Part shown: positions 13,508 to 43,414 of the stretch, in pieces
Layout of the letters: each line of letters opens with the position of its first letter
Numbering within the stretch: position 1 is the stretch's first letter
Assembly (NCBI GenBank): GCA_046566325.1
Contig: JBKHWX010000236.1
Coordinates: forward strand, 1 to 47,286
Source: Actinomycetes bacterium
GTDB lineage: Bacteria; Actinomycetota; Actinomycetes; Actinomycetales; BWSM-131
Direction of reading: 5' to 3'
Length of the DNA: 47,286 nucleotides
Made by a program: the position numbers and the translations under genes
Notes under the pieces: model-generated
Seen by the model: the letters and a program-made list of their open reading frames with translations, nothing else
Told to the model about the DNA's origin: nothing
Databases searched by the model: none

Positions 13508-13534
13508 GCACGCGCTCCTGCTTGGACCCTCTCG

Positions 13535-16499: not shown

Positions 16500-16544
16500 G
16501 GATCCCTCGGCATCGCCGCTTGCCCGGGCCCGTCCGAAATCCCG

Positions 16545-18407: not shown

Positions 18408-19093
18408 GCTGTCACATCCCGGCTGACGTGATGTTCACGTCCGACGCGCCCATCGTCGGGGTAGACGAGGTCGGCGACGGTGACCGCACGGAGCCGGACC
18501 GCCATCACCAGCATCAGCTCCGCGGTGGTGAGCGCGTCACCTATGGCGTGGTGAGGGCTGTGCGGCTCCAGTCCGACACTGACGGCGGTCCGCTCCAGCG
18601 ACGGCTCATGGCCCGGGAGCGCTTCGCGGTCCAACCCGGCCGCGCGCACCAGCCCTGCGGTGTCGACCACCGGCCCAACCAGCCGAGTCCCGATCCGGCG
18701 AAACGCCCTGGACAGGAACGCGCGCTCGATCCATGCGGCGTGGGCGACCAGCACCCGGCCGTCGAGCAGATCGGCGAGGACGGGCAACGCTTCCGCCTGG
18801 CTCGGTGCGTCAGCCAGGTCCGCAGGGCGCAACCCGTGGATGCACACCGAGCGCATGGAGACGTCGCAGCCAGGTCGGACGATCTGGTAGGCGCAGTCGC
18901 CCACGCGCACCCTGCCGTCCACGACGCATACCGCTCCGAACGAGACGATCGAGTCGCGGCGCAGATCAAGCCCGGTGGTCTCGACGTCGACCACGCAGTA
19001 CTCCACCTCTCGCCACGGCCGGCCGAGCAGGCGCCTCGGCGGCCCGCACCGGGTACCCCGCCACGGGAACCGCTTTACCCACCACTCGCTCAC
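18404..19093 (-). CDS. DnaQ/epsilon-like 3'-5' exonuclease
   Basis: Exo motifs VVDVETTGL, HAAWIERAFL and HHAIGDALTTAEL. It has 4-nt overlaps with both flanking DUF294 genes. Confidence 0.8.
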   Translation of the reverse strand: MSEWWVKRFPWRGTRCGPPRRLLGRPWREVEYCVVDVETTGLDLRRDSIVSFGAVCVVDGRVRVGDCAYQIVRPGCDVSMRSVCIHGLRPADLADAPSQAEALPVLADLLDGRVLVAHAAWIERAFLSRAFRRIGTRLVGPVVDTAGLVRAAGLDREALPGHEPSLERTAVSVGLEPHSPHHAIGDALTTAELMLVMAVRLRAVTVADLVYPDDGRVGREHHVSRDVTA

Positions 19094-20925: not shown

Positions 20926-20991
20926 CGTGCCTCCGGGCTGGCTCCTTCAGACCCTCGTGTCGAGAAACTGTGCCAGGCGGTCCCGCCTACG

Positions 20992-26367: not shown

Positions 26368-26817
26368 ATGCCTGAGTCAGGAAGCCCGTTCGACTTCGGC
26401 CGCTACGGGGAGCCCGGCGAACCGAATCCTCACGTCGCCCGTTCGCCGTTCTCCGAGCCGACGCAGGACCGGACCTCGGGCTTCTGGTCCACCGCCGACC
26501 AGGCGCCCGCGGCGGTATCCGTCGGCAGGCCGCCCCTCCTCTGGGTCGCGCTGGGACTCGCGACCGCAGTGGTCGGGACGGTGGTGGCGGCCGTCTGGGG
26601 CCGCATGCTGCCGCTCGCCCTGCTGGGGTGGCTGTTCGCCGGCCCGACCGCGATCGGGCTCCTGGCCCTCTTCACCGCACGGGACACGGCGCAGCGCGCG
26701 CGTCCCGTCTACGCAAGCCCCACGTGGGTGTCGCTCGCCTACTGGGCATCGCTCGCCGTCGCCCTGCTCGGCCTGCTGCTCGCCGCGTACCACATCGCGG
26801 ATGTGGTGGCGCGGTGA
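26368..26817 (+). CDS. Small membrane protein, first gene of the tubulin/vWA/GTPase operon. Cytoplasmic N-tail with an SPFDF motif, followed by ~3 TM helices.
   Basis: MPESGSPFDFGRYGEPGEP..., then hydrophobic stretches LLWVALGLATAVVGTVVAAVW, LPLALLGWLFAGPTAIGLLALF and WVSLAYWASLAVALLGLLLAAY. I do not recognise a family. Confidence 0.6.
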   Translation: MPESGSPFDFGRYGEPGEPNPHVARSPFSEPTQDRTSGFWSTADQAPAAVSVGRPPLLWVALGLATAVVGTVVAAVWGRMLPLALLGWLFAGPTAIGLLALFTARDTAQRARPVYASPTWVSLAYWASLAVALLGLLLAAYHIADVVAR

Positions 26818-29543: not shown

Positions 29544-29592
29544 GCCGCACCGCACGGACAGACCGGCGTGCCCAGAGGAAGGAATCTTCGTC

Positions 29593-32500
29593 ATGAGGCG
29601 CTTTCTCGTCGTCGGCTGCGGCGGGTCGGGCGGGGCGACCCTCGCCTATCTCATGGACCAGCTCCGCTCGGACCTCGCCTCGCACGGCGTCGGCTCTCTG
29701 CCGCCTGGCTGGCAGTTCGTCCACATCGACGTCCCGACCGGGTCCGAGCCCGGCCCCGAGGGCCTGTCCAACGTGCAGCAACAAGGGGGCACGTACGTGC
29801 CCACGGGCCCGAACGTCCCGTCCTACAAGGTGCTCGACACCGCCGTGAGCAACACGCTCCGCAGCAAGAACGCGCTCGCCGAGATCGCCACGTGGGCGCC
29901 GAGGGACCCCGACCAGGTGAGCGTGCCGATCGCGGACGGCGCGGGCCAGTACCGGGCGCTCGGGCGGATGATCACGCTCGGCCGGGCCGGCGACGTCCGC
30001 CGAGCACTGACGGCAGCGTGGCAGCGCCTCAACACGGTGGAGACCATCTCGGAGATGGGCCGGCTGCAGAGGGTGCCCGGCCTGGGATCGTTCGACCCTC
30101 AGAACCCGGCGGTGGTCCTGGTCGTCTCGTCGATGGCCGGGGGTGCGGGCGCGTCGATGGCCTTGGACGTCTGCCGCCTCCTCACCCTCGTCGACGGGGT
30201 CGACCCCGGCCGGATAGCGGTGTTCATGGCCAGCCCCGACATCTTCGACGCGCTGCCCGCGGCCGCTCGCAGCGGCGTCCGCGCGAACGCGCTCGCGATG
30301 CTCGGCGAGATCATCGCCGCCCAGAGCGGCTCGGCCCGCGGGCACGACGCGACCGTGATGTCCGCGCTCGGGCAGGGCGGGGGGCAGGGGACCCGGGTCC
30401 CGTTCGCGCGCGTGTTCCCCGTCGGGCGGTTCATCGGCGCCGAGAAGGCACTGTTCGGCGACGGGTCGCAGATGGCCGTCTACCGGGGGCTCGGACGCGC
30501 TCTCGCGGGACTGATGACCAGTGGACAGGCGACCCAGGACTTCGTCGCGTTCGACCTCACCAACGGTGTCGGCCTCAAGAACGAGTCGCGGTACCTGAAC
30601 TGGGGCGTCCAGAACCACCTCGAGGCGCAGTGGGGGTCGTTCGGCTTCGCCAGCCTCAGCATGGGGCGAGACCGCTACGCGGAGTACGCGGCCCAGCGCC
30701 TCGCCCGCAGCACCGTCGACCACCTGCTGAAGGCCCACACGGACCCGGGCAGCACCGCCAGCGAGGCCGAACAGGTGCGCGCTCTCGTCGAGAGCCACTG
30801 GGGGAACGCGTGCCGCCTGCTGGGCCTGCCGGTCGAGACGGCGACCGGCGCCCACGGCAGACCGCAGATGGGGCCCTGGCTGGTCGACGTCGCATTTCCC
30901 AGGGCCACCGCGGAGGAGGCCGCGCGCTCCGTCGTCCGCGAGCACCTGTCGCGACACATCCCTTCGCCCAACGGGATCCACGCCGCCCAGTGGACCCCTG
31001 CCCTCCGCAACCAGCTGGCGCTCCGTCGCTCCGCGGTGCTGACCGCCAGCAACACCGCTGCCTACGCCTGGGCCCACGCCTGGCAGCACGAGCTGCTCCG
31101 CCGGCTCGTCGCGGTCGCGGACGAGGCCGTCACGGCGATGGGCCTGCGCTACGCCGTCACGCTGCTCGGCACCCTTGCCGAGCACGTCCGAGACGTCGTG
31201 ATCCCCGGCGCTGCCGAGCTTGCGCTGCAAGGCCCGGTCGACGTGGTGGCGTTGCCCCCCGAGGTCGAGAACCTGCTCGCCGGGCTGAGGGGGGTGATCA
31301 GCAACGGCCAGCACCTGGTCGACCGGCTCACGGATGGCGTCACGAGGAACGTCCGGGACCAGATCTGGTCACGGGCCGCGCACCTCGTGCAGGGCGTCCT
31401 GGGCTCGTTCCTCGCGGACGTCGTCCAGCCGTTGGAGCAGGCGCTCCGCTCCCCGCTGCTGTCCCTCGAGCAGGAGGTGGCGGCGCCGGTGACCGACCTT
31501 GGGCTGGCGCGGCTGGCCGTCGACCAGTACGGGGCGTGGCCGTCGGACGACGACGCCCTCGTGGCGGCCCGCTTCACCCATGCCAACAACGAGGTCCTGC
31601 TCACGAGCTCAGCGGACTTCCAGCCGCGGTACACGGTGGACATCCAGGCCTCCGCATCCCGGCAGCCGGCGGAGTCCACCACGTTCCCGGACGCGCGGAA
31701 CCGCGCCGTCCGGATGGTCGTCTCCGGCCACTGGCCGACGGTGGGCGGCGCCAAGGAGCCGGGGTCTGCCGTACAGCTGCTGTCGGGATGGAACGCCCCC
31801 GTCTTCGTCACCGCACCCGCCAGCGGCGAGACCCTCGTTCACAGCCGCGCACGTTTCGCCGTCTCCCTCTCGCCCCGCGAGATCCTCGGACGCGCCCGCC
31901 AGTTCGTCGCTCGCCCCGGTGAGTCGTTCTCCACCTTCTGCGAGCTCTCGCTCCGCGACTACATCGCAGGGGGCGACGTCTCGGAACCGGCGCAGGCGCA
32001 GCGCATGGCCGAGGTCGTGGGCAAGTTCCAGCAGGCCCTCAGCCTCGCCCGACCGCTGATCAGCGCCGACCAGACGGCGGTCGAGATGGTCCACGGGGAA
32101 GGGCTGAGCTACCAGTACAAGTTCTCCGAGATCCCCTTCGAGGGGCTGCCAGTGGCCGGCAGCGTGGAGAAGAACCTGTCGGCTCCACTGATCGACCCGA
32201 CGACGAGCACACGGTTCCGGGCCGCGCTGTCCATCGACGACCAGATCAAGCGCATCGACGTCTTCGGGTCCTACCCGAAGTACTCACCGCTCGTGTTCGA
32301 CGCGGTCCTCCAGCCGGTGATCGACCAGTGGAACTCCACGGACGGCAACGGGCACGCGCTCTTCTGGCGGTGGCGCAGGTCGCGGCCGCTGCCCGCGTCC
32401 CTGCCGATGGCGGACAGCGAGCGCCGCGCCATGGTCGCGGGCTGGTTCGTCGGCCAGGTCGTCGGCAGCATCCAGATTCCCGCCCCGCCCTACACGTCAC

Positions 32501-33126
32501 CGGTCCAGGTGTGGGACGACGAGCACTCCCGCTGGGAGGCCTTCCCGCACCCGTTGCTGACGCCCCCGTCCGGCTTCCTCGCGCCCTACGACTGGCTCCC
32601 CGCGGTGCTGGAGTCCGCTCTCCTGGCGATCGCCCGCAGCCATGAGCCGCCGATGATGCACTCGCTGCGCCCGTACCAGCTCCTGCGAGGTCTCTGGGAC
32701 GACAGCGACAACGGCCCGGCGGACGGGATCCTGCAGAGGAGCGGCGTGGGCACGCTCGCCCGATGGCTGACGTCCGGGCTGACGTCCGGCACCGTCGACA
32801 GGCGCCGCGGGGGCGCCTCCAGAGTGCCGGGGGTGGACGCCGCGGCGTCGTTGGACGAGCGCAAGCAGCTGACGGTGGACTGGCTCACCCGCATCCAGTC
32901 GCTGGCGGGGACCCACTTCCTCCCGCCGGGCGAGCACGGTGCCCCCGGCGGCGGTCAGTTCTCGACGGTGACGAACCGGCAGCAGGCCGGTCAGGTGCCG
33001 ATCTTCCGCGATGTCGCCGCCGACGTCTACTGGGCGACCGGCGAGATCATCGAGATCGTCGAGAAGGTGACCGACGTCGAGGCGGGCCCGAGCGTTCCGG
33101 GCCTTCCCGACGGAGGCGTCTTCTGA
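29593..33126 (+). CDS. Giant (1177-aa) tubulin/FtsZ-like protein (Tubulin_2-type N-domain plus an ~800-aa uncharacterised C-region)
   Basis: ATG at 29593 follows GGAAGGA. T1-like loop FLVVGCGGSGGATL (29608-29643), DGAGQYRALGR, and T4-like VVSSMAGGAGASMALD (30127-30162). Confidence 0.75.
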   Translation: MRRFLVVGCGGSGGATLAYLMDQLRSDLASHGVGSLPPGWQFVHIDVPTGSEPGPEGLSNVQQQGGTYVPTGPNVPSYKVLDTAVSNTLRSKNALAEIATWAPRDPDQVSVPIADGAGQYRALGRMITLGRAGDVRRALTAAWQRLNTVETISEMGRLQRVPGLGSFDPQNPAVVLVVSSMAGGAGASMALDVCRLLTLVDGVDPGRIAVFMASPDIFDALPAAARSGVRANALAMLGEIIAAQSGSARGHDATVMSALGQGGGQGTRVPFARVFPVGRFIGAEKALFGDGSQMAVYRGLGRALAGLMTSGQATQDFVAFDLTNGVGLKNESRYLNWGVQNHLEAQWGSFGFASLSMGRDRYAEYAAQRLARSTVDHLLKAHTDPGSTASEAEQVRALVESHWGNACRLLGLPVETATGAHGRPQMGPWLVDVAFPRATAEEAARSVVREHLSRHIPSPNGIHAAQWTPALRNQLALRRSAVLTASNTAAYAWAHAWQHELLRRLVAVADEAVTAMGLRYAVTLLGTLAEHVRDVVIPGAAELALQGPVDVVALPPEVENLLAGLRGVISNGQHLVDRLTDGVTRNVRDQIWSRAAHLVQGVLGSFLADVVQPLEQALRSPLLSLEQEVAAPVTDLGLARLAVDQYGAWPSDDDALVAARFTHANNEVLLTSSADFQPRYTVDIQASASRQPAESTTFPDARNRAVRMVVSGHWPTVGGAKEPGSAVQLLSGWNAPVFVTAPASGETLVHSRARFAVSLSPREILGRARQFVARPGESFSTFCELSLRDYIAGGDVSEPAQAQRMAEVVGKFQQALSLARPLISADQTAVEMVHGEGLSYQYKFSEIPFEGLPVAGSVEKNLSAPLIDPTTSTRFRAALSIDDQIKRIDVFGSYPKYSPLVFDAVLQPVIDQWNSTDGNGHALFWRWRRSRPLPASLPMADSERRAMVAGWFVGQVVGSIQIPAPPYTSPVQVWDDEHSRWEAFPHPLLTPPSGFLAPYDWLPAVLESALLAIARSHEPPMMHSLRPYQLLRGLWDDSDNGPADGILQRSGVGTLARWLTSGLTSGTVDRRRGGASRVPGVDAAASLDERKQLTVDWLTRIQSLAGTHFLPPGEHGAPGGGQFSTVTNRQQAGQVPIFRDVAADVYWATGEIIEIVEKVTDVEAGPSVPGLPDGGVF

Positions 33127-35789
33127 TGACCGGCTCGGGCCGCCGCGACGTCACCGTCCTCCTCGCCACCCCCGGGCTCTCCGACGGCGTCCTCGACGTG
33201 CTGCAGGACCTGTCGGCCGACGGTCTCGTCGACCCGTTCGTCTGGGCGGCCGGAGAAAGGGCCTCCGACACGTCGCTGCCGGCCCTGCGGGTGGAGCGCG
33301 GCACGCTGAGCGGCACGACGGTCGAGGACGAGCTCGTGTCCGCGTCGTACCGGACGGTTCGGCTCGCCGTCCTCGTCTCGCTGCTGCCCGGCGAGCAGCC
33401 CGTCGGCTCGGCGGCGGAGCAGCGGCTGGCCGAGGTGGCGAGCCGGTCGGCAGGAGGTGCGCGGCTCGTCCGCCTCCGGCTGCTGCTCGTCCGCCCGGGG
33501 AGCAAGGCCGACCCGGAGGACGTCGCGCGGACGGGCTGGCACAACGTCCTCCTGTCGCCGGAGGACTCGGCGGGTCCTGGACGAGGCCGGCTGGTGCACG
33601 GCTCGGAACCGGACCAGGTCGACGTCGGCCGCCTTGCGGCGCCGTTGGTCGCCTCCCTGGCCGGGCTGTGGGCGGACGTCGAGCACGGCCCCCTCGACGA
33701 GCAGCGTGTGCTGCCCGGCGAGTACGTCGTCCCGTCGCGTTCGTTCTACCGGCGGCTCCGGGCCGCGTACGTCCAGTCCGAGCTGAGCGGCCGGGTCCTC
33801 TCCTTGGACACGGGCTTCCCGCTTCCCTCCCTGCAGGGCGCGATCACCGTGTACGTGGACGACGTCGAGCTGGCGACGTCCGACATGGCCCGGGCGCTGT
33901 GGACACGCCACCAGGGAGTCCTCAAGGGGCCGAGGACACGGCCCGTCGTCGAGGAGACCGCTCCCGTCTCGATGTGGGCGGCCCTCGGGATGATGTTCCG
34001 GTTCATCTGGGCCGCCCTTCGCGGCGCCCCAGGGCAGTGGTACGCCGCGGTCCTGAACAGGGCCAGCTCCGCGGTGGCGAGCGCGGTGCATGCGACGGTC
34101 TTCGGCAGCGCTCCCGCGGCCTACCAGGTCGTCGTCCGCGGGATGACGGCCGAGGGCCTTCCAGCCGGCTGGAGAGAGCTGGGGGACGCCTCCGACCGGC
34201 TCGACGGCCTGCTGGACGACGAGGCACACGCCCGCCAGCACGAGGTCCGCGGCGACCTGTCCGCGCTGTGGAAGGACTACGTCGCAGGCGCGATGACCTT
34301 GGTCGACGCGGGGGAACGGGCCACGTCGCTGCCTCCTGTCCAGGTCGGGGCGGACCGCGGCGTGCTCCGCCGGGCCAAGGACTGCGTCCCGCCTCCGCGC
34401 GATGCCTTCCGCGACGTCCCTGCGCACCTGGCCGCCGTCACCGGCGTCCGCGACATCGAGCCGTACGACGTGCTCGGCGCCCACAACCTGGACCAGTGCC
34501 TGCGCTCGGGAAGCGAGGACTCGAGCGTCAGCGTCTCTGCAGAGAGGACGGCGCAGCAGCTGCGAGAATGGCGCAGCGACCACCAGCGCAGCTACGCGGT
34601 GCAGGTGGGAAACCAGCTGGGCCAGGCCCTGCTGGCCACAGCCAGGGAGGTCCAGGACCTGCTGAGGACGCTGTCGGACGCCGCGGACGTCACGCAGGTG
34701 GACGACGCAGAGCGGGCGCACCAGCTTCGCGTGGCCCAGCACGTCCGGCTGCTCCTCTGGCTGCTCGTGGGTGTCCTGGTGCTGATCGGCGTTGCGCGCT
34801 GGGCGTCGTGGATCACGCCGCTGCGCACGCTCGTGCTCTGCCTCTCGGCGGTCGCCGCCTGGGCGGTGGCGTCGCTCGTGGTCTTCGTCCGTGGCCAGCG
34901 CGAGCTGTTCCGTGAGCTGCACCGGCGCCGGACGCTCGTCGCGGAGGCGGACGCGGCGAAGGCGAACCTGAAGCAGGCGACGCGGGACGTGCGGCGGCTG
35001 AGCGACGCCTACTCCCAGTTCCTCTCCTGGAGCAGGGTCCTCGGCGTCGTCCTCGACGCTCCGTTCGGACCTCCCCCGCCGCCCGGCTGGCAGGGCAACC
35101 GGACGACCGACGGCCTGCCGCACTGCGCGGACGTCGCCGTCGCACGGCCCGACGAGCAGGCCCTGAGGAGGGCGGCGACCGGTGTGCGGCAGTACGTCTA
35201 CACGGCCGGGTGGCTGCGGGGGCCCTGGCAACAGACGCTGGCCACGGCGTCGACCGGCTCGGGCGGCGACAAGGACCTCGCCGAGGACCTGGAACGCCTT
35301 TTCTCGGACCGGGGCGCCGGGTCGGGGTCGCACCTCGACGTGTGGTCACAACAGCTGGCGCAGAGGGGTCTGGGGCCGAGGACCCGGCAGGAGCACTGGG
35401 CCAGCACGCTGGGGCGGCTGCGGGACGACGAGCGACGGTCCGTGACCGCCGCCGTCCTCGCCCGGGTGCAGAGCGTCCGTCCCGGGTCGCCGGTCGTGTC
35501 CCGCGGCCAGTTCCTGCAGGGCCTGGACACGCTGCCGGTCGGGAACACGGGCCCGGAGGCGTGGGAGGGACCGGTCCTGTTCGAGCCCAGCGCGTTCAGC
35601 CCCGAAGCGCTGGCCGGCACGAGGAACCGGATGGCACGAGCCGTCCTCTCCCGCGCCGAGCACGGCCTCGGACAGGTGGCCGTGCTCACCCAGCTGGGCG
35701 AGGGCCTTCCGGTGCACGACTTCACCTTCACCGGCACGCAGGAACGGGAGAACGTCCGTCGTCCCATAGAGGACGAGTTCGAGTTCTAG
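33126..35789 (+). CDS. 887-aa protein of unknown function with a central TM hairpin
   Basis: ATG at 33126 shares a base with the upstream stop (TGATG). Two adjacent hydrophobic helices, LLLWLLVGVLVLIGVARW and LVLCLSAVAAWAVASLVVFV, at about 34741-34890. I recognise no motifs. Confidence 0.65.
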   Translation: MTGSGRRDVTVLLATPGLSDGVLDVLQDLSADGLVDPFVWAAGERASDTSLPALRVERGTLSGTTVEDELVSASYRTVRLAVLVSLLPGEQPVGSAAEQRLAEVASRSAGGARLVRLRLLLVRPGSKADPEDVARTGWHNVLLSPEDSAGPGRGRLVHGSEPDQVDVGRLAAPLVASLAGLWADVEHGPLDEQRVLPGEYVVPSRSFYRRLRAAYVQSELSGRVLSLDTGFPLPSLQGAITVYVDDVELATSDMARALWTRHQGVLKGPRTRPVVEETAPVSMWAALGMMFRFIWAALRGAPGQWYAAVLNRASSAVASAVHATVFGSAPAAYQVVVRGMTAEGLPAGWRELGDASDRLDGLLDDEAHARQHEVRGDLSALWKDYVAGAMTLVDAGERATSLPPVQVGADRGVLRRAKDCVPPPRDAFRDVPAHLAAVTGVRDIEPYDVLGAHNLDQCLRSGSEDSSVSVSAERTAQQLREWRSDHQRSYAVQVGNQLGQALLATAREVQDLLRTLSDAADVTQVDDAERAHQLRVAQHVRLLLWLLVGVLVLIGVARWASWITPLRTLVLCLSAVAAWAVASLVVFVRGQRELFRELHRRRTLVAEADAAKANLKQATRDVRRLSDAYSQFLSWSRVLGVVLDAPFGPPPPPGWQGNRTTDGLPHCADVAVARPDEQALRRAATGVRQYVYTAGWLRGPWQQTLATASTGSGGDKDLAEDLERLFSDRGAGSGSHLDVWSQQLAQRGLGPRTRQEHWASTLGRLRDDERRSVTAAVLARVQSVRPGSPVVSRGQFLQGLDTLPVGNTGPEAWEGPVLFEPSAFSPEALAGTRNRMARAVLSRAEHGLGQVAVLTQLGEGLPVHDFTFTGTQERENVRRPIEDEFEF

Positions 35790-35851: not shown

Positions 35852-36535
35852 ATGACGACGAGCAGGTTCAGTGCCAGTGCGAGCCAGCGGCTGGATGCGT
35901 TGAAGCAGTGGCGCGAGGACGCGGAGGCCGCGGGCCACGCCGTCCCGTCGTACACGGACCTGCACACCATCGCCTACGACGGGTGGACGGACGGCATCGA
36001 CCTCGCGCGCTGCCAGCCGTGGCGGGACACGATCCTTCACGTCCTTATCCGTGTGGAACGCGGGGACCCGGCACCGTCCCGCTTCCTGCCGGAGCACCTC
36101 CGCTCCCCTAAGCCGACGCTCGGTGGCGGGCAGACCGCACGGCCCCGGCCGCATCAGGAAAGGACGAACAGCCCCAGCATGGCCTCGCCGACCCAGGAGA
36201 TGATGCTCGGCGTCCCGCAGGAGTGGCGGAAGAGGGGTCAGGACCGCAGCGACCCGCTCTTCAACGGCCTGAAGGACTCCAAGCTGCGTGTGATCGTCCG
36301 CAGCCACGACCGCTCGGCCGAGGCGGTCGCCCGCCTGCTGCCCCAGTCCAAGAGCAGGCTGGCACCCGAGATCGCCCGAGTGCTGTCCGAGTTCACGCAA
36401 GGCTTCGACCAGCAGAGCCGCGAGATGCCGGCGAAGCCGGGCTTCTCCCCGTCGACCGCACCGTCTTCGCAGTCCGCACAGGCTTCGCAGCCCAGCGCGG
36501 CTCGGCAGCCCAGCCCGCCTCCCCCTCCAGCCCGC
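35852..36535 (+). CDS. N-terminal segment (frame 2) of an operon protein. It ends in a Ser/Gln/Pro-rich linker where the coding signal moves to another frame.
   Basis: MTTSRFSASASQRLDALKQWREDAEAAGHAVPSYTDLHTIAYDG...SKSRLAPEIARVLSEFTQGFDQQSREMPAKPGFSPSTAPSSQSAQASQPSAARQPSPPPPP. After about 36530 this frame becomes an Arg-rich shadow with no stop until 36949. The end coordinate is approximate. Confidence 0.5.
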
Positions 36536-38382
36536 CTCCGCCGCCGAGCCCGCCTCCGCCGCGGACCGGCTCCACGGCCGGGGCCTCACGACGCTCCGCG
36601 GAAGGGCCGCCGCCGGCTGGCGCACCGCCGTCGGACGAGGTGCCGGCCGAGATCCGGAACACCGCGCCCGAGCCGGCGGACGGGCCGTCCCGCGACCCTT
36701 CGCTGCCCGGTCTCGAGGAGTTCGCCGCGTACGACTTCTCGAGCCCCGACGCCCCTCCCCCGGGACAGCTGCGGGCGTCCGTACGGGAGGAGCAGGTATC
36801 GCTCAGCTGGAAGCCGTACGAGACCGACCAGAGCACCGTTCTCTACCGCGTCGTGTCGAGCGACGAGTTCGAGCCGTACGCGCCGGAGAAGGCCGCGCCG
36901 GTCACCGGCCCCACGACCGGGCTGCGGGCTGTGGACGTCCGCCCTCTGACATCGGCCGTGCGGTTCTACCAGGTGTGGGCGAACGCGGGCAGCGACGTCG
37001 CGGACGCCGTCGAGCAGCAGCCGGTCCTGCATGCCCGGCAGCTGCTCGTCAGCCCGGTGCGCCACCTCGAGCTCCGGGAGGACTCCGGGCGTGTCATCGG
37101 GCAGTGGTCGGTGTTCCCCGGCACCAGCCGCGTGCACGTGTACCGCATCCCGATCGAGAAGGCCGCGACCGGCGGCCTCGACCCCTCGCACCGGATCCTG
37201 CACTTGGAACCGAACCTCGGAGGCTTCGTCGACGGCGACGCGCAGCGCGGGCGTCGGTACGTCTACCAGGTCGCCGCCGAGGCCGTGGTGGACGGCGTGA
37301 CGCTGCTGTCGGCTCCCGTGAGCCAGGACGTGCTCGTGTCCACCGTCCTCGAGCAGGTCCAGGACCTGGACTTCACCTTCCGCGGCGACGCGGACGACGC
37401 CTCGTTCGACCTGACGTGGAGGACGCCGCGTGGGGGACGCGTCGTCGTCTACCGGACGACGACACCGCCGCGCGCGGGGGCGACCGCAGCCTCGATGCCC
37501 GAGCCGGCCCTCGAGCAGGCCTCCCTGGCGTCCGCCGACCGGCTTGCGCACCCGATCAGCGCCCTCGAGGGCGGCCGATCCGTGATGCGTGACGTGCCGT
37601 GGCCCGCGAGCTGGCATCGCGCGTTCTTCACGCCCGTCACGCTCCTCGACGGTCAGGCGCGGGTGGGCAGGACACGGACCGCGGCTCGCAGCGCGCCCGT
37701 CCGCGACGTTCGCATCGTCGAGAGAGTGCAGCAGCAGGTCGTCACCTTCGCGTGGCCCCAGGGTGCCGACGCCGTCCAGGCCTACATCGGGGCGAAGGAC
37801 CAGACCTCTGCTGCAGCGATGAGCGCGCGACCGGTGGAGATCTCGAAGGCGCGCTACGAACAGCTGGGCGGCCTGACCTTCTCCGCACCGCTGCCCCGGC
37901 ACGGGTGCTCGCTGCACCTCGTCTCGGTGACGTTCGAGGGTGGCTCGAAGATCACCGGCGACCCGACGTCGGTCGAGTACCCCGGACTGGTCGAGCTGCG
38001 CTACGACGTCGCGGACAGGCGGAACTTCCTCGGCGCCCCGGTGGCGCTGGCTGTGTCGATCACCTCGGCCGAGCCCCTGGACGTCTGTCCCCCGTTCGTC
38101 CTGGTCCACCGTCAGGACCGGCTGCCCCTCGACGTCCGGGACGGCGTGGCCCTGCAGGTTCAGCGGGAGGACGACCCCGAGAAGCGACGCACGAGCCGGT
38201 TCACACCGACGACGCTCGGCCCGCAGACGGCAGGCGTGGCCTGGCGGGCAGAGGTCAAGGGCCTCACCGGGTTCGTCCGGCTGTTCGTCGACATCGACCC
38301 CGAGCACCTGACGAAAGTCGCCCTGCTCGACCCGGACGTCGGCAAGCTCGTCCTCGGCTCCCGCTCGAGGTTCCAGCTGTGA
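36223..38382 (+). CDS. Protein with FN3/Ig-like beta-sandwich repeats (frame 1). The true start, or the junction with the 35852 segment, lies at about 36500-36640.
   Basis: This is the maximal ORF in the track, and its first ~90-130 codons look non-coding. After that come repeated modules: LRASVREEQVSLSWKPYETDQSTVLYRVV, VRHLELREDSGRVIGQWSVFPGTSRVHVYRI, VQDLDFTFRGDADDASFDLTWRTPRGGRVVVYRT and VRDVRIVERVQQQVVTFAWPQG. No signal peptide. Confidence 0.6.
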   Translation: MAEEGSGPQRPALQRPEGLQAACDRPQPRPLGRGGRPPAAPVQEQAGTRDRPSAVRVHARLRPAEPRDAGEAGLLPVDRTVFAVRTGFAAQRGSAAQPASPSSPPPPPSPPPPRTGSTAGASRRSAEGPPPAGAPPSDEVPAEIRNTAPEPADGPSRDPSLPGLEEFAAYDFSSPDAPPPGQLRASVREEQVSLSWKPYETDQSTVLYRVVSSDEFEPYAPEKAAPVTGPTTGLRAVDVRPLTSAVRFYQVWANAGSDVADAVEQQPVLHARQLLVSPVRHLELREDSGRVIGQWSVFPGTSRVHVYRIPIEKAATGGLDPSHRILHLEPNLGGFVDGDAQRGRRYVYQVAAEAVVDGVTLLSAPVSQDVLVSTVLEQVQDLDFTFRGDADDASFDLTWRTPRGGRVVVYRTTTPPRAGATAASMPEPALEQASLASADRLAHPISALEGGRSVMRDVPWPASWHRAFFTPVTLLDGQARVGRTRTAARSAPVRDVRIVERVQQQVVTFAWPQGADAVQAYIGAKDQTSAAAMSARPVEISKARYEQLGGLTFSAPLPRHGCSLHLVSVTFEGGSKITGDPTSVEYPGLVELRYDVADRRNFLGAPVALAVSITSAEPLDVCPPFVLVHRQDRLPLDVRDGVALQVQREDDPEKRRTSRFTPTTLGPQTAGVAWRAEVKGLTGFVRLFVDIDPEHLTKVALLDPDVGKLVLGSRSRFQL

Positions 38383-41159
38383 GTCCCGGGCCGAGCGACG
38401 CCAGCAGGTTCCCGCAGCTCACCTACACCTCCTTCGACCGCGGCGACGGCCAGGGAGGGTGGCAGGTGAAGGACACGGTCGGCGACCTCGACGGCGCCGA
38501 GGAGACCTACCTCCTGCGGCACGTCAACACGCACGCGCAGACGCTGGGAGCACTGCCGCAGTTCCCCTCTCCGGAGGAGATCAGTGCTCGCTGTCGAACC
38601 CTCGTCTACCGCAACGACCGCGCCGGCTCCGCTGCCTACTGGCACAGCATCCCTGCCGGGCACGACGCGGCCGGCCGGCCGGGCAACGTCTTCATCCACG
38701 CGCTCGTCGACCGCCACCCGGAGGAACCCTTTCCGCCGCTTCGGCCGGTCGAGCTGTGGCGGTCCCCCTTCTGGCTGGTTCCTTTCGGCGGCCCCGAGGT
38801 CCAGCAGGCGACCCTGTCGCCCGAGGTCCCGGCTCCGGGCCACGTGGTCGACCGCGACCGGGTCGTGGAGTTCCTGCTGGACCCCACGGCGTTCAGGCTC
38901 CCCGTCCTCGCGGTACTGCTCGACGCCGTCCGCGCCAGGCTGGACGACGCCGAGCGACCAGGACCACCGGTGGTCCTGGTCGTCCCCAGCGCCGACGAGG
39001 GGGCTCTCTGGCTCGGGGCGGTGTCACAGCTGACGTCCCCGGGGACTGCCCGGCACCTCGGCTTCACCATCGGGGAGCCGCTCGACCGTCTCGTCGCGGA
39101 CCCCGAGCGTCGCGGCGACCTCAACGCCGTGCTCGACAGCGACGGGAGGACGGAGAGCAGCGTCCCGGACCTCCTCCTGGTCGACGTGACCCGTCCGGTG
39201 ACGCTCGGCGAGCTCGACGGAGCCCCGCACCTGACGGCGCAGGGGTCGGCGGTGCCGGTCACCGAGTGGTCGGTGCTGGCGGCGGAGGTCCTGCAGGACC
39301 CGGACGTCGCGAGCAGCCTGCTGGCGTCGCTCGAGGACATGGCTCTGCGCCTGGGCGACCATGACCTCGCCCCGGCACTCCCGCTCGCCCTCACGGTGGC
39401 CGCGACGCCGGAGACGTGGCCGGACGCCGGCGACGAAGCGGTGCGTGTGCTCCACCGCTCGGCGCCGAGCAGGCTGCTCGAGCGGGAGGATCTCGCGGAG
39501 ACGGTCGCGCAGCTGCTGCGCCACACCCTGGGGACGACCGCGGCCAGCGCGTGGGACACGGTGCGGCCGTCCGTGGCCGTTCGGCCCCCCTCGCTGCTGC
39601 TCGGGCTGGCGCTCGGCCTCTACGCCGAACGAGTCCTGCGGGACGAGCACTGGCTCGCGCGGCGGGGGGGAGTACCGCCCGAGGGCCGCGTGCAGGTCGC
39701 GGACCGCGAGCGGGCGCGCCTTGCCGGCGAGCTCAGCGTCGTCCTCCAGCGCCTCGACGAGCTGGCACGAGAACCCGACCGCGCGGGTGAGGGGACGCTG
39801 TTCGACGCGCTGGTCGCGGTCAGGGCCATCGACTTCGCAGACCGCAGCGACCTGTTCGCCGAGGCCGCCCCCACCGTCCGCGAGGATGCCGAGCTCCTGG
39901 TCCAGCGCCTCGTCCTGCCCATGCTGCTCGACCCGCACGCCGGCGATGCCCTCGTCGGCTCGTGCGGAGCGGTCGCCGAGGCCACCCTGGCCGCCTTCTT
40001 CCGCCCCCTCATGTCCCTCGAGCTGCACGGAAGGTCGCCTGGGCATGGGCCCTCGCCCCAGGTGCTCGACTGGTTGTTCCCCTCGGCGCCCGCCTTCCCC
40101 AGCGCGGCGGAGATGGCCCAGTCGTCCGACCTCCCCGACCCGCTCCTGCTGGAGCTAGCGGTCTCGCTGGTCCGCCGCGGACGATCCCTCGCGCAGGGGC
40201 CCGGGGGAACGCCCGAGCAGGACGTCCGGCCGTTCGCGCTCTGGGGGCTGCTCACCACGCACCCCGAGGAGCCGCCCGCGGCTGACGTGGCCGCCTGCTT
40301 CTCCGGTCCGCCGTGGGAGCCGGCGGCGCTCCGGGTGACCCTCGAACACCTCGGACCACGACTGCGGCCCGGCCAGCTGCTGCAGACGGTCCTGGCGGCG
40401 CCGCGAAGCGAGGACCTCAAGGCGTTGTGCGACCTCATCCTGTCCGCACCACCGGGCGAGCGGCTCCCGGCTCCGGGGGCACGGCCGGACGACGCCCGGC
40501 TGCTCGGCGACGCATCGGCGCTTCGGCTGCGGAGCGCGGCGCGGTGGTGGACGCGCTACAACCCCGCGGAGCAGGCTCAGCAGCTGCTGGACCAGTACCT
40601 GGCCCTCGACCGCCGGGGTCTCGGCGCGTTGCTCGCGGCGGATGCCCAGGTGTCGGTGATCGTCGCCCTGGCGCTGAGGGCGATCGTCGCACCGTTCCGG
40701 ACGAGCGTCCCGCGGGGCGAGACGCTCCTCGCGTGGCACCGCGAGGAGCAAGGGGTCCGTGCGGCGGCAGAGCGGCTCGCGTACGCGGTGAGCCGTCGGT
40801 CGAACCTCGATGCCGCGCTGGCGGCGGCCGCACTCGCCACCGACCGCGCCGCGCCGCGGAACGACCTGCGAGAAGCGCCCGTGGTGCGGGCGCTGGCCCC
40901 TCTCGCAGGCGGCTCACGGTCGTTCTTCGGGGAGGCGTTCTCGATCCGCACCTCCTCGATTCCCGAGTCTCGGGACGCCGTCGAACGCGACGTGCTGCTG
41001 CCCGCCGTCACGTCCGCGCTCCAGCGGCTGTTGCAGCTTCGAAACTCGGCCGGCGAGATGGACGAGTTGGAGAAGTTCGCGAAGTCCTGGTGCAAGGAGA
41101 ACGCCGCACCGTCCGGAGGAGGTCTTCATGGCGCGCTCAGCCGTCTGCGGCGGTCCTGA
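38379..41159 (+). CDS. 926-aa GAP1-like (GTPase-associated protein 1-like) protein with a mostly helical C-terminal region
   Basis: GTG at 38379 overlaps the upstream stop (GTGA). N-terminus is FPQLTYTSFDRGDGQGGWQVKDTVG...GRPGNVFIHALV. The family assignment is from memory of the N-terminal motif only. Confidence 0.5.
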   Translation: MSPGPSDASRFPQLTYTSFDRGDGQGGWQVKDTVGDLDGAEETYLLRHVNTHAQTLGALPQFPSPEEISARCRTLVYRNDRAGSAAYWHSIPAGHDAAGRPGNVFIHALVDRHPEEPFPPLRPVELWRSPFWLVPFGGPEVQQATLSPEVPAPGHVVDRDRVVEFLLDPTAFRLPVLAVLLDAVRARLDDAERPGPPVVLVVPSADEGALWLGAVSQLTSPGTARHLGFTIGEPLDRLVADPERRGDLNAVLDSDGRTESSVPDLLLVDVTRPVTLGELDGAPHLTAQGSAVPVTEWSVLAAEVLQDPDVASSLLASLEDMALRLGDHDLAPALPLALTVAATPETWPDAGDEAVRVLHRSAPSRLLEREDLAETVAQLLRHTLGTTAASAWDTVRPSVAVRPPSLLLGLALGLYAERVLRDEHWLARRGGVPPEGRVQVADRERARLAGELSVVLQRLDELAREPDRAGEGTLFDALVAVRAIDFADRSDLFAEAAPTVREDAELLVQRLVLPMLLDPHAGDALVGSCGAVAEATLAAFFRPLMSLELHGRSPGHGPSPQVLDWLFPSAPAFPSAAEMAQSSDLPDPLLLELAVSLVRRGRSLAQGPGGTPEQDVRPFALWGLLTTHPEEPPAADVAACFSGPPWEPAALRVTLEHLGPRLRPGQLLQTVLAAPRSEDLKALCDLILSAPPGERLPAPGARPDDARLLGDASALRLRSAARWWTRYNPAEQAQQLLDQYLALDRRGLGALLAADAQVSVIVALALRAIVAPFRTSVPRGETLLAWHREEQGVRAAAERLAYAVSRRSNLDAALAAAALATDRAAPRNDLREAPVVRALAPLAGGSRSFFGEAFSIRTSSIPESRDAVERDVLLPAVTSALQRLLQLRNSAGEMDELEKFAKSWCKENAAPSGGGLHGALSRLRRS

Positions 41160-41222: not shown

Positions 41223-42269
41223 ATGCCCGTCTACATCCTCGAGGGCTCGGCAAGCGCCCTGCTCGGTCACGGCACCGTGACGGTCTCGCTGGCAGCTCCC
41301 GGCATCGTCGACACACCGCGGCTCGACGTCGTCGGAGAGGGTGCCGACACGACGAGAGCGATCGCACCGCGGCCCGGGCTTCTGGTCCTGCCGTCGCTGC
41401 GAGAGCACGTTCTGCTGCGTGTCTCCCCGCCCTCGAGGGAGCGTGCGCACGGCGTGCACGTCTTCCCGGACGGGACGGTCGTCACGATCTCGCTGAGCAC
41501 GGGACGGGACGGCGACCCGGCCGCGGACAGGGCCGTCCTGAACCACGTCGACGTCTCCGGCCTGCCCTACAAGGACCTCGTGTCCGTCACCCCCACCCGC
41601 GACGGTGTCGTGGTCGCGGCGCTCGAGGCCGTGGCCGAGGACCCGCTGCCCCCCCTGGCGTCGGCGGCACGGATGGTGGCCCGGTCGATCCTGGGCGTCG
41701 AGCGCGTGCCCGAAGACTCGGCCGTCGAGGTTCTGGTCGCCGTGGACACGTCGGCCTCGATCCAGCCCTGCCGCGCGGACGGCAGCCTGGAGTCGGCGCT
41801 GGAGGTGCTGACCGGCGTCAGCCAGGTCATGAGCCGTGAGCGGTCGGTGCGGCTGGCACTGTTCGGCAGCCGTCCGACGCTCTTCCCCGTCGTGCCACCC
41901 GCGGAGGTGCCTGCGTCGCTCCTCGACTCGCTCCAGCCCGCGCCGACGAGCTACGGGCTGCAGGGCCAGCTTCCCGAGCTGCCGGGGGCGGGCCGCTGCA
42001 TCACCTACCTGCTGACGAACGGTCCGGTGAGCGCGACACCGTCCGGGTCCGCGACCCGGAAGGTGCACCCCGTCGTCCTGGCGCCTCGCTCCGCCTGGCC
42101 GCTGCTGGCGAGGCCGGACGCCGCCGCGTCGTTCGTCCCGGTCCCGGACCGGGGCGAGGAGGCTCGCGGCCTCGTCGCGGAGCCGCACACCCTGCACCCG
42201 CTGGTCGGCTCGCTCCTCAGGAGCTGCGTGCCCGCGGGGTCCCCTCTCGCCGAAAGGCTCTCCAGATGA
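41223..42269 (+). CDS. Cytoplasmic vWA-like protein (348 aa) with a DxSxS MIDAS motif
   Basis: EVLVAVDTSASIQPCRADGSLESALEVL. DTSAS lies at 41745-41759. The later LLTNG replaces the usual xxDG. No signal peptide or TM segment. Confidence 0.55.
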   Translation: MPVYILEGSASALLGHGTVTVSLAAPGIVDTPRLDVVGEGADTTRAIAPRPGLLVLPSLREHVLLRVSPPSRERAHGVHVFPDGTVVTISLSTGRDGDPAADRAVLNHVDVSGLPYKDLVSVTPTRDGVVVAALEAVAEDPLPPLASAARMVARSILGVERVPEDSAVEVLVAVDTSASIQPCRADGSLESALEVLTGVSQVMSRERSVRLALFGSRPTLFPVVPPAEVPASLLDSLQPAPTSYGLQGQLPELPGAGRCITYLLTNGPVSATPSGSATRKVHPVVLAPRSAWPLLARPDAAASFVPVPDRGEEARGLVAEPHTLHPLVGSLLRSCVPAGSPLAERLSR

Positions 42270-43414
42270 GCAAGTGCCCGCACTGCTTCCGCGCCCTTCC
42301 GCCGGACCGGTACGTCTTCGCCTGCCGTTCGGGCAAGTGCACCCCGAACCACGACGCGGAGGCCAGCGCTTTCCACGGCGCGTCGATCTCGACGCCGCCG
42401 CTGCGCGTCCTGACCGCTCCGGAGAACGCGCGGAGAGGTTGGACGCCCGGTCAGTCGGTCCACTGCGCGGCGTGCGGGGGGCCCACGTACGAGGCGTGCC
42501 CGTGGTGCCACTACTGGCTCCTCGAGGGGTGGCGGCACGCGGAGGTGACGTGCCTGGCGATGGCCGGAGCCCGGGCGACGGGCAAGAGCTTCTACATCGC
42601 CGTCGCCGTGAAGCAGCTCGAGAGGCTGGCGGAGCAGATGAACGTCGCGCTCCAGCCGGCGACGCAGCAGACCCAGCGCAGCTACACGGAGCGCTACGAG
42701 AAGCCTCTGTACGAGGACAGGGGGATCATCCCGCCGACACCGCCCGCCACGACGGCGGACTCCTACCAGCGGCACCCGTTGATCTTCAGCCTGGGCATGC
42801 GCGACGGGCGGCGGACGTACCTCGTGCTGCGCGACGTCGCGGGTGAGGACCTCGAGAACCACAGCACCGACGCCTTCCACCTGCAGTTCTTCGCACACGC
42901 GTCGGCGGTGGTCTTCCTGTTCGACCCCCTGTGGGTCCCCGAGGTCTACGGGCAGCTCCAGGGGCTGCTGCCGCACCAGCTCTTCCGGGGCGGCGACCCG
43001 CGGAAGGTGCTCGCGAACGTCCTGCGGCTCATCGACTCCGGGCGTCCCAGGCTCGCTGTCACGATCTCCAAGTTCGATGCGCTCCAGGCCCTTCGCAGGG
43101 TGGAGGGCACGGACTGGAGCCGGGTCATGTCGAACGCAGGGGCCGCCTTCCAGCGCGATCCCGGGCTCGCTCCCGAGTACGACTACCGGGACGGAGAGCT
43201 CCTGCACCACGAGGTGCGCAGCCTGCTCCAGCGACTCCATGCCGGCGCCGTCGTTGCGGCCGTGGAGAACCCGCACACCGGCGAGCCGCTGGCGCACCGG
43301 TTCTTCGCCGTCTCCGCCCTCGGGGAGTCGGCGGAAGGCGAGAGGCTGCACGACCGCGGCATCTCCCCGTTCCGGTGCCTGGATCCCATCCGTTGGGCGA
43401 TGCAGATGTCCTGA
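42266..43414 (+). CDS. Double zinc-ribbon plus P-loop (TRAFAC-type) GTPase
   Basis: ATG overlaps the upstream stop (ATGA). Zinc-ribbon cysteines: CPHC...CRSGKC and CAAC...CPWC. G1 motif GARATGKS (42566-42589), G3 motif LRDVAGE, G4-like motif ISKFD. Confidence 0.8.
   Translation: MSKCPHCFRALPPDRYVFACRSGKCTPNHDAEASAFHGASISTPPLRVLTAPENARRGWTPGQSVHCAACGGPTYEACPWCHYWLLEGWRHAEVTCLAMAGARATGKSFYIAVAVKQLERLAEQMNVALQPATQQTQRSYTERYEKPLYEDRGIIPPTPPATTADSYQRHPLIFSLGMRDGRRTYLVLRDVAGEDLENHSTDAFHLQFFAHASAVVFLFDPLWVPEVYGQLQGLLPHQLFRGGDPRKVLANVLRLIDSGRPRLAVTISKFDALQALRRVEGTDWSRVMSNAGAAFQRDPGLAPEYDYRDGELLHHEVRSLLQRLHAGAVVAAVENPHTGEPLAHRFFAVSALGESAEGERLHDRGISPFRCLDPIRWAMQMS

What the first reader, a model, noticed from the sequence alone, without database searches (positions are those of the whole stretch)
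42266..43414. P-loop GTPase fused to an N-terminal double zinc ribbon, terminal gene of the operon
**Seen.** Two Cys4 knuckle pairs (CPHC..CRSGKC and CAAC..CPWC) precede a compact NTPase. Its motifs are G1 GARATGKS, G3 DVAGE and a G4-like SKFD.

**Established.** An NKxD/SKxD motif together with DxxG specifies guanine nucleotides in TRAFAC GTPases.

**Inference.** This is the switch or thresholding component of the system. The Zn ribbons may bind nucleic acid or a peptide ligand.
Basis: partly seen in the sequence, partly recalled or inferred. Interest (0 to 1): 0.6.

Follow-up and report, generated by a model that had tools for sequence, protein, structure and literature searches.

The report
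Zinc-module DO-GTPase ending a tubulin-GAP1 operon
This gene encodes a GTP-binding switch protein with an eight-cysteine zinc module, a new copy of the already described "DO-GTPase" that closes a large tubulin-like/GAP1 operon in actinobacteria, so it is a known kind of system that is still almost untested experimentally.

Summary
ORF 42266..43414 (+, 382 aa) is a real gene (GC3 0.93). It has four Cys knuckles, then G1 GARATGKS, Walker B RDVAGE, G4 SKFD and G5 SALG, and it is the last gene of a co-directional operon.

The protein matches Pfam DO-GTPase2. Its operon is vWA membrane protein, Tubulin_2/FtsZl1, TM protein, FN3-like protein, GAP1-N2/M, vWA-like protein, then the GTPase. That is the actinobacterial tubulin-type GAP1-N2 "GTPase-centric" system of Kaur et al. 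2020, seen earlier by Makarova and Koonin 2010.

- The four outer Cys are invariant in 162 aligned homologues. The four inner Cys are the family norm but are lost together in Mycobacteriaceae and a Rhodococcus-containing Nocardiaceae clade. This suggests nested zinc sites (1+4, 2+3) rather than two sequential ribbons.
- Mycobacterial homologues are named SaeC (ESX-1 scaffolding). They include a derived three-gene locus beside ESX-1.
- Tubulin-type operons like this one occur in genomes with no EccB.
- The gene is patchy among relatives: 3 of 60, and absent from a genome of the same genus.

Verdict: a new member of a known kind. Interest is low to moderate.

The parts
42266..43414 (+). DO-GTPase2-family GTPase gene (382 aa), last gene of the operon
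   Evidence: ORF and translation. GC3 0.93. Pfam PF19993 scores 28.7 bits against a cut-off of 27. 1297 cluster representatives at E<=0.001. AF2 pLDDT 95.6.
42266..42541 (+). N-terminal 92-aa eight-Cys, presumably two-zinc, module
   Evidence: Four knuckles at constant spacing of 12 / about 40 / 7-8 residues. Folds confidently alone, pLDDT 92.8. No significant PDB fold neighbour.
42275..42286 (+). Knuckle 1, CPHC (C4, C7): outer pair, invariant
   Evidence: Invariant in 81 locus-derived sequences and 81 diverse sequences.
42323..42340 (+). Knuckle 2, CRSGKC (C20, C25): inner pair
   Evidence: At least 90% conserved in diverse representatives. Lost together with knuckle 3 in Mycobacteriaceae and a Rhodococcus/Williamsia clade.
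42464..42475 (+). Knuckle 3, CAAC (C67, C70): inner pair
   Evidence: Same pattern as knuckle 2. Occasional Cys-to-His replacements.
42497..42511 (+). Knuckle 4, CPWCH (C78, C81, H82): outer pair, invariant
   Evidence: Invariant. Knuckles 3-4 weakly resemble the Spt4/RpoE'' zinc ribbon, E 0.019.
42566..42589 (+). G1 / Walker A, GARATGKS
   Evidence: G101, G106 and K107 in 81/81; position 108 is S or T.
42737..42739 (+). Thr158, candidate switch I (G2) threonine
   Evidence: T in 79/81 and S in 2/81. The assignment to G2 is an inference.
42830..42847 (+). G3 / Walker B, RDVAGE, with the family-defining Glu194
   Evidence: D190, G193 and E194 in 81/81. RDVAGE in 81/81 locus sequences. Kaur et al. 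name the conserved Walker B Glu as a family feature.
43067..43078 (+). G4 variant, SKFD (family pattern [S/A]-K-F-D)
   Evidence: K269 in 80/81 and D271 in 81/81. Position 268 is S in 64 and A in 14, never N.
43313..43324 (+). G5-like SALG
   Evidence: S350 and G353 in 81/81, A351 in 71/81, L352 in 77/81.
41223..42269 (+). 348-aa partner gene, a divergent vWA-TerF-like protein with a DxSxS motif, translationally coupled to the GTPase
   Evidence: ATGA overlap, the same in most related loci. D175 and S179 invariant, S177 at least 90%. 10 of 22 family members weakly match PF10138 vWA-TerF-like.
38379..41159 (+). GAP1 protein (GAP1-N2 plus GAP1-M domains)
   Evidence: Pfam PF20013 at 2.3e-19 and PF20014 at 1.7e-06. 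Start taken from the GC3 frame switch and the first GTG.
35852..38382 (+). FN3-like repeat protein gene, read in two frames in this window (frameshift at about 36300-36560)
   Evidence: GC3 frame switch. Relatives have one uninterrupted ORF. fn3 weak, E 0.007.
32763..35789 (+).
   Evidence: No Pfam match. Conserved in position in related loci at 33-39% identity in nearly all.
29350..33126 (+). Giant tubulin/FtsZ-like protein (Tubulin_2 / FtsZl1)
   Evidence: Pfam PF13809 at 7.3e-46. Makarova and Koonin 2010.
26376..29543 (+). First operon region, encoding the membrane vWA protein
   Evidence: VWA / VWA_2 matches at E about 3e-4, below cut-off. Earlier notes place a small membrane ORF at 26368 and the vWA start at 26814.

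Best explanation
The gene encodes a member of the DO-GTPase2 family. This is a TRAFAC-class P-loop GTPase with all five G motifs, a Walker B DxxGE and a variant G4 [S/A]KFD. It is preceded by a compact eight-Cys module that most likely holds two zinc ions and is packed rigidly on the G domain.

It is made in fixed stoichiometry with a divergent vWA-like protein, through a 4-nt ATGA overlap. Together with the GAP1-N2 protein two genes upstream it forms the constant core of a seven- to eight-gene operon. The operon is membrane-associated and carries a tubulin-like (FtsZl1) protein, a vWA protein and an FN3-like protein.

The most likely mechanism is inferred, not shown. The GTPase is the GTP-bound/GDP-bound switch. 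Through GAP1 and the vWA partner, it licenses assembly or rearrangement of the tubulin-like polymer and the membrane vWA/TM proteins. The system is accessory and probably horizontally acquired, as expected of a conflict or defence-type system.
For: Shown by tools:
- Family: Pfam DO-GTPase2 above its cut-off.
- Motifs: invariant G1, DxxGE, K/D of G4 and SAL G5 across 81 diverse homologues.
- Fold: AF2 model with pLDDT 95.6 and pTM 0.94. Its only PDB fold neighbours are TRAFAC GTPases: EF-1alpha/EF-Tu, G-alpha, Rab/Rho.
- Context: GAP1-N2/M, Tubulin_2 and vWA in the same operon.
- Synteny: the order Tub - X - FN3 - GAP1 - vWA-like - GTPase is conserved in loci from Propionibacteriales, Mycobacteriales and Micrococcales.
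- Coupling: the ATGA overlap is conserved.
- Distribution: patchy, 3 of 60 relatives of the same order, absent from a 92%-complete genome of the same genus.

From the literature:
- Kaur et al. 2020 describe exactly this architecture and propose the switch role.
- Makarova and Koonin 2010 noted the GTPase in FtsZl1 operons.
Against: - The Pfam score is only 1.7 bits above the cut-off.
- The G4 asparagine is replaced by Ser or Ala, so guanine specificity is inferred from the invariant K and D only.
- No biochemical or genetic test of any tubulin-type operon was found.
- No operon protein matches PADLOC defence models.
- The neighbouring genes in the window are ordinary metabolism, not a defence island.
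- The FN3-like gene is frameshifted in this assembly, so the operon may not be intact here.
- Only one DO-GTPase is present, so the 'double' (paralogue dimer) idea does not apply directly.
Confidence: 0.7

Rival explanations
1. It is a SaeC-type factor. Its job would be to scaffold and assemble a type VII (ESX-1-like) secretion machine at the cell envelope, as its mycobacterial namesakes are said to do.
For: [quoted passage not shown]
- M. smegmatis SaeC is a named, detected protein.
- In fast-growing mycobacteria a three-gene FN3-like / GAP1 / GTPase locus lies just upstream of ESX-1 genes. These are an EspE-family protein, a ParA-like ATPase and EccB about 11 kb away.
- From memory, Wirth et al. 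2012 (Mol Microbiol 83:654) reported saeA-C as needed for ESX-1 activity. That paper could not be read here.
Against: - The ESX-adjacent short loci are nested inside the mycobacterial clade and so are derived.
- The window's operon is the tubulin type, with no ESX gene in 47 kb.
- No EccB was found in the MAG, which is only 68% complete.
- No EccB was found in three other genomes with tubulin-type operons, one of them complete.
- In Propionibacteriaceae, EccB lies 0.5-3 Mb away.
- The SaeC name has been propagated by homology to tubulin-type loci as well.
Confidence: 0.1
2. It is the regulatory GTPase of a housekeeping membrane-remodelling or cytoskeletal machine built around the FtsZl1 tubulin homologue, not a conflict system.
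For: - Makarova and Koonin 2010 proposed membrane remodelling for FtsZl1 operons with vWA and GTPase genes.
- Several operon proteins are membrane-associated (notes).
- The flanking genes are metabolic.
- No PADLOC match.
Against: - The distribution is very patchy, 3 of 60 relatives, and the gene is missing in a genome of the same genus.
- The closest homologues lie in other orders at 57-70% identity, against 37-44% within the order. This fits accessory, transferred content rather than a housekeeping function.
Confidence: 0.15
3. The protein is a degenerate or ATP-using P-loop NTPase that serves only as a structural subunit.
For: G4 lacks the canonical Asn (SKFD). The Pfam score is marginal.
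Against: The catalytic and binding residues are invariant over deep divergence: K107, T158, D190, G193, E194, K269, D271 and the SAL G5. That argues for an active guanine-nucleotide site.
Confidence: 0.05

Closest known systems
[quoted passage not shown]
   Same: - TRAFAC GTPase with a Glu after the Walker B DxxG.
- Two N-terminal zinc-binding elements.
- Operon with GAP1-N2/M, an FN3-repeat protein, a single tubulin fused to a long C-terminal region, and vWA proteins.
- Found in Actinobacteria.
   Different: - Nothing essential differs. The sequence is divergent: 70% to the nearest database protein and 48-58% to the 80 genome loci fetched.
- GAP1 lies upstream of the GTPase, not downstream as the paper calls typical.
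- Only one DO-GTPase is present.
- The function is a prediction in the paper as well.
SaeC of Mycobacterium smegmatis (UniProt A0QNH6; SaeA-C, ESX-1 scaffolding and assembly proteins)
   Same: Homologous over the full length at about 52-54% identity, with the same G motifs and outer Cys pairs. Also the last gene after a GAP1-N2 protein and an FN3-like protein.
   Different: - The Sae-type locus has three genes, lacks the tubulin, TM and vWA genes, and lies beside ESX-1.
- The mycobacterial proteins have lost the four inner Cys.
- The window has no ESX genes.
GTPase of FtsZl1 operons (Makarova and Koonin 2010, Biol Direct 5:33)
   Same: A diverged P-loop GTPase encoded with FtsZl1 and vWA proteins. 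The authors noted fusions to a domain related to the Cys-rich domain of DnaJ.
   Different: They quote a TxKD G4 signature, whereas this family has [S/A]KFD. They proposed membrane remodelling rather than conflict.
Cys-rich domain of DnaJ (two zinc sites formed by motifs 1+4 and 2+3; recalled from Martinez-Yamout et al. 2000)
   Same: Four Cys pairs with short-long-short spacing. The co-loss of pairs 2 and 3, with pairs 1 and 4 invariant, is what a nested arrangement predicts.
   Different: - There is no CxxCxGxG signature.
- Knuckle 2 is Cx4C.
- The central insert is about 40 residues and contains a helix.
- No fold match to DnaJ or anything else in the PDB.

Membership tests
DO-GTPase2 (Pfam PF19993; Kaur et al. 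2020) | Profile match above the curated cut-off | tested here: met
   28.7 bits against a cut-off of 27, residues 98-293. The margin is small. Several close homologues score 22-28 bits.
DO-GTPase2 (Pfam PF19993; Kaur et al. 2020) | TRAFAC GTPase motifs with a conserved Glu in Walker B (DxxGE) | tested here: met
   GARATGKS and RDVAGE are present. D190, G193 and E194 are in 81/81. Fold neighbours are TRAFAC GTPases only.
DO-GTPase2 (Pfam PF19993; Kaur et al. 2020) | One or two N-terminal zinc ribbons | tested here: met
   Eight Cys in four knuckles within residues 4-81. This is the family norm, 70 of 81 diverse representatives. Metal binding itself was not tested.
DO-GTPase2 (Pfam PF19993; Kaur et al. 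2020) | Genomic linkage to a GAP1 protein of the matching subtype (GAP1-N2) | tested here: met
   GAP1-N2 at 2.3e-19 and GAP1-M at 1.7e-06 in the gene at 38379..41159. Conserved in related loci.
DO-GTPase2 (Pfam PF19993; Kaur et al. 2020) | Actinobacterial tubulin theme: single tubulin, FNIII-repeat proteins, vWA proteins | tested here: met
   Tubulin_2 at 7.3e-46. vWA weak, E about 3e-4. fn3 weak, E 0.007. Synteny across three orders. The HRDC fusion named in the paper was not detected.
DO-GTPase2 (Pfam PF19993; Kaur et al. 2020) | GTP binding and hydrolysis; switch function | not testable with these tools
   Inferred from motifs only.
[quoted passage not shown] | Full-length homology to SaeC-named proteins | tested here: met
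   52-54% identity at 99% coverage.
[quoted passage not shown] | Three-gene saeABC-type locus adjacent to an ESX-1 cluster | tested here: not met
   The window has the seven- to eight-gene tubulin type and no ESX genes. No EccB in the MAG, which is 68% complete. The short ESX-adjacent type is a derived mycobacterial clade.
[quoted passage not shown] | Required for ESX-1 secretion or assembly | not testable with these tools
   The primary paper is not held.
Canonical Ras-like/TRAFAC G4 motif [N/T]KxD | Asn or Thr at the first G4 position | tested here: not met
   Ser in 64, Ala in 14 and Thr in 1 of 81. K in 80/81 and D in 81/81 are retained.
DnaJ-type Cys-rich two-zinc domain | Four CxxCxGxG repeats | tested here: not met
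   The knuckles are CPHC, CRSGKC, CAAC and CPWC with no GxG. No fold match.
DnaJ-type Cys-rich two-zinc domain | Nested zinc sites (1+4 and 2+3) | tested here: inconclusive
   Supporting points:
- Knuckles 2 and 3 are always lost together: 59 of 81 locus sequences, 6 of 81 representatives, 2 to 5 independent events.
- The outer pairs are never lost.
- AF2 places an uninterrupted strand (73-77) between knuckles 3 and 4.

Limits:
- The sign test is not significant, median p 0.25.
- No coordinates were available.
- Knuckles 3-4 weakly match the single-zinc Spt4 ribbon.

The most novel reading that the evidence does not exclude
The eight-Cys module may not be two sequential zinc ribbons. It may instead be a nested two-zinc clasp: an outer site C4/C7+C78/C81 that is universal, and an inner site C20/C25+C67/C70 that is dispensable.

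The constant trio of GAP1-N2, vWA-like protein and DO-GTPase may be a general GTP-gated assembly or positioning module for envelope machines. It would have been co-opted in mycobacteria as SaeABC for ESX-1, and would not be an immune sensor-switch. The only genetics on the family would then point away from the published conflict-system reading.
Probability: 0.25. Interest if true: 0.55.

Novelty: new member of a known kind. Interest (0 to 1): 0.3.

Why it matters
The gene is one more copy of a family that is large (about 1300 clusters at 50% identity) and that has been described only by comparative genomics.

Its value is as a clean, compact example with a very confident structure model. It could be used to test three things:
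- whether DO-GTPases bind GTP and zinc;
- how they talk to GAP1 and the vWA-like partner;
- whether tubulin-type GAP1-N2 operons are defence systems, envelope-assembly machines, or both.

The link to the mycobacterial SaeA-C proteins is absent from the main text of the 2020 paper. It gives an experimental handle in M. smegmatis, a laboratory organism.

Tried and rejected
- A single-sequence locus scan of genome contigs found nothing. The alignment-based scan worked.
- A six-frame search of the MAG with PF19993 gave no hit at E<=0.001, although the gene is there. The model is too weak for genome-wide E-values.
- NCBIfam gave no match. PADLOC gave only a chance-level hit and nothing for the other operon proteins.
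- The Wirth et al. 2012 paper on SaeA-C is not held under its DOI or PMC id. Papers that cite it, and a virulence-factor review, give no detail. Searches for MSMEG_0044-46 found nothing. The bare term 'SaeC' was swamped by unrelated acronyms.
- A PDB sequence search with the family profile found no G-domain relative, only a weak Spt4 zinc-ribbon match. The vWA-like partner profile found nothing in the PDB.
- The zinc topology could not be settled. Model coordinates are not exposed. A Foldseek search of the isolated domain returned nothing below E 2.6.
- I considered and rejected a second DO-GTPase paralogue. The 348-aa neighbour is vWA-like, not a P-loop protein. The MAG has one copy.
Full report
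**Observation**

The window is a whole 47,286-bp contig of an incomplete MAG (68% complete, 309 contigs) with 72% G+C. A single marker, PEP synthase, is 84% identical to that of Knoellia. This suggests a Micrococcales actinobacterium near Intrasporangiaceae.

ORF 42266..43414 (+) gives a 382-aa protein. Codon-position GC is 0.68/0.50/0.93, so it is a real gene. All the quoted motifs are present and correctly numbered:
- CPHC, residues 4-7
- CRSGKC, residues 20-25
- CAAC, residues 67-70
- CPWCH, residues 78-82
- GARATGKS, residues 101-108
- RDVAGE, residues 189-194
- SKFD, residues 268-271

The start ATG overlaps the stop of the upstream gene (ATGA). The stop is followed after one base by a convergent sedolisin-type peptidase gene. 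The gene is therefore the last of its operon.

**Identity**

Pfam places residues 98-293 in DO-GTPase2 (PF19993) at 28.7 bits, against a cut-off of 27. NCBIfam and PADLOC give nothing meaningful.

The co-directional genes upstream are:
- a membrane vWA protein
- a giant Tubulin_2 (FtsZl1) protein, 7.3e-46
- a large protein with no Pfam domain
- an FN3-like repeat protein
- a GAP1 protein with GAP1-N2 (2.3e-19) and GAP1-M (1.7e-06) domains
- a 348-aa protein

Kaur, Burroughs, Iyer and Aravind (2020, PMC7159879) describe exactly this arrangement. They define GTPase-centric systems with 'DO-GTPases' of the TRAFAC clade that have a conserved Glu in Walker B. They report that 60% carry one or two N-terminal zinc ribbons. 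These GTPases are paired with GAP1. In the GAP1-N2 type they report an actinobacterial theme with a single tubulin, FNIII-repeat proteins and vWA proteins.

Makarova and Koonin (2010, PMC2875224) had already noted a diverged GTPase in FtsZl1/vWA operons. They said it was sometimes fused to a domain related to the Cys-rich domain of DnaJ. An earlier follow-up note on the tubulin gene of this same operon reached the same operon-level reading.

**Family-wide conservation**

The word-indexed search found 635 homologues, the nearest at 70% identity. The exhaustive search found 1297 cluster representatives at E<=0.001, some fused to proteins of about 900-1100 aa.

In 81 diverse full-length representatives, down to about 30% identity, conservation is as follows:
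- G101, G106, K107, D190, G193, E194, D271, S350 and G353 are invariant.
- T158 is present in 79/81.
- K269 is present in 80/81.
- The first G4 position is Ser (64) or Ala (14), never Asn.

The family therefore has a non-canonical but fixed G4, [S/A]KFD. It keeps the Lys and the guanine-specifying Asp, together with a classical SAL G5. This supports guanine specificity as an inference.

AF2 with this alignment gives pLDDT 95.6 and pTM 0.94. Foldseek against the PDB returns only TRAFAC GTPases: EF-1alpha/EF-Tu, G-alpha, Rab/Rho and RNF112. TM-scores normalised to the query are only 0.24-0.31. No solved structure matches the G domain by sequence. The fold class is confirmed, and there is no close solved relative.

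**The cysteine module**

C4, C7, C78 and C81 are invariant in all 81 sequences taken from genome loci and in all 81 diverse representatives. C20, C25, C67 and C70 are at least 90% conserved in the diverse set. All four are missing in 59 of the 81 locus sequences, which come from Mycobacteriaceae and a Rhodococcus/Williamsia clade. All four are also missing in 6 of the 81 representatives.

In the locus set no sequence lacks only one inner knuckle. In the diverse set the only partial cases are single-residue changes, three of them Cys to His.

A tree built on the G domain alone needs two independent joint losses in the locus set. The diverse set needs three to five. The paired sign test has too few events to be significant (median p 0.25).

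The pattern is what nested zinc sites would predict: knuckles 1+4 forming one site and 2+3 the other. As I recall, that is the arrangement in the DnaJ Cys-rich domain. It is not what two sequential ribbons would predict.

In both AF2 models an uninterrupted five-residue strand (73-77) runs directly from knuckle 3 to knuckle 4, and a six-residue strand (15-20) runs into knuckle 2. By my geometric inference, this places sequence-adjacent knuckles at opposite ends of strands and so fits the nested reading.

Three points count against it:
- Knuckles 3-4 weakly resemble the single-zinc ribbon of archaeal Spt4/RpoE'' (E 0.019).
- The isolated domain has no significant fold neighbour.

I rate nested at roughly two in three. 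It is met only for the inner four Cys in Mycobacteriales.

**Operon partners**

Eighty related loci were fetched. The order Tubulin, large protein, FN3-like, GAP1, 348-aa protein, GTPase recurs in Propionibacteriales, Mycobacteriales and Micrococcales.

The 348-aa protein ends 4 nt into the GTPase gene in most loci. Its family has an invariant D175 and S179 and a near-invariant S177, forming a DxSxS motif, plus a near-invariant downstream Asp. Ten of 22 members weakly match vWA-TerF-like. It is therefore a divergent vWA domain behind a beta-rich N-terminal part.

**The Sae connection**

[quoted passage not shown] M. smegmatis SaeC (A0QNH6) is seen in proteomics.

In M. septicum and related fast growers there is a short locus with only an FN3-like gene, a GAP1-N2/M gene and the GTPase. 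It lies just upstream of an EspE-family gene and a ParA-like ATPase. EccB lies about 11 kb downstream of the GTPase. On the tree these short loci are nested inside the mycobacterial clade, so they are derived from the tubulin type.

Tubulin-type operons behave differently:
- They occur in genomes with no EccB match: a complete Pseudarthrobacter genome, Microlunatus parietis and a Microbacteriaceae strain.
- In Propionibacteriaceae they lie 0.5-3 Mb from EccB.
- The MAG itself has no EccB match, though it is incomplete.

The window contains no ESX genes. The Sae function cannot simply be transferred to this gene. What I know of the Sae experiments (Wirth et al. 2012) is from memory, because the paper is not held. 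Kaur et al. do not mention ESX or Sae.

**Biological role**

The gene is patchy. Only 3 of 60 genomes of the same order have a homologue, at 37-44% identity. A 92%-complete genome of the same genus has none. The best matches are in other orders. This argues for accessory, transferred content, in line with a conflict-type system and against a housekeeping role.

Against the conflict reading, no operon protein matches PADLOC and the flanking genes are ordinary metabolism.

The FN3-like gene is read in two frames in this contig, whereas relatives have one ORF.

**Verdict**

The object is a new, fairly divergent member of a family and operon type already described computationally in 2010 and 2020.

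- the family-wide motif definition, [S/A]KFD and SAL;
- the outer/inner Cys dichotomy with its nested-site hypothesis;
- the conserved translational coupling to a vWA-TerF-like partner;
- the placement of the mycobacterial Sae locus as a derived, reduced form of the same system.

Interest is low to moderate.

Noticed in passing
window 35852-38382 (shift at about 36300-36560): The FN3-like repeat gene switches reading frame inside a Pro-rich linker. In 15 related loci checked, the two parts are one uninterrupted ORF. The window therefore carries a frameshift, either an assembly error or a real lesion.
   Followed up: partly
L064:5345-11158 and downstream to 21134; also L057, L051: Fast-growing mycobacteria have a reduced three-gene locus (FN3-like, GAP1-N2/M, GTPase, matching SaeA-C). 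It lies directly upstream of ESX-1 genes: an EspE-family protein, a ParA-like ATPase and EccB. On the GTPase tree it is nested within tubulin-type loci. Some species (M. peregrinum, Mycobacterium sp. NPDC049093) carry both types.
   Followed up: yes
window 41223-42269: The 348-aa protein upstream is a divergent vWA-TerF-like domain (conserved DxSxS and a downstream Asp) behind a beta-rich N-terminal half. Its stop overlaps the GTPase start (ATGA) in the window and in most related loci.
   Followed up: yes
proteins P0247, P0279, P0284, P0288, P0292: Some family members are C-terminal domains of proteins of 930-1120 aa. These are probably the GAP1-GTPase fusions mentioned by Kaur et al. The N-terminal parts were not examined.
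   Followed up: no
window 16545-18434 (-) and 19090-20946 (-): Two paralogous genes lie nearly side by side. Each encodes cNMP-binding plus CBS plus DUF294 nucleotidyltransferase domains.
   Followed up: no
window 13500-16500: This stretch has lower G+C (0.67). It holds two minus-strand ORFs (14274-14627, 14826-15476) with unusually low first-position GC (0.46-0.49) but GC3 above 0.93. They were not identified.
   Followed up: no
window 43416-45098 (-): A sedolisin/kumamolisin-type (S53) peptidase gene converges on the GTPase gene with one base between the two stop codons. It is not conserved next to the operon in any related locus.
   Followed up: partly
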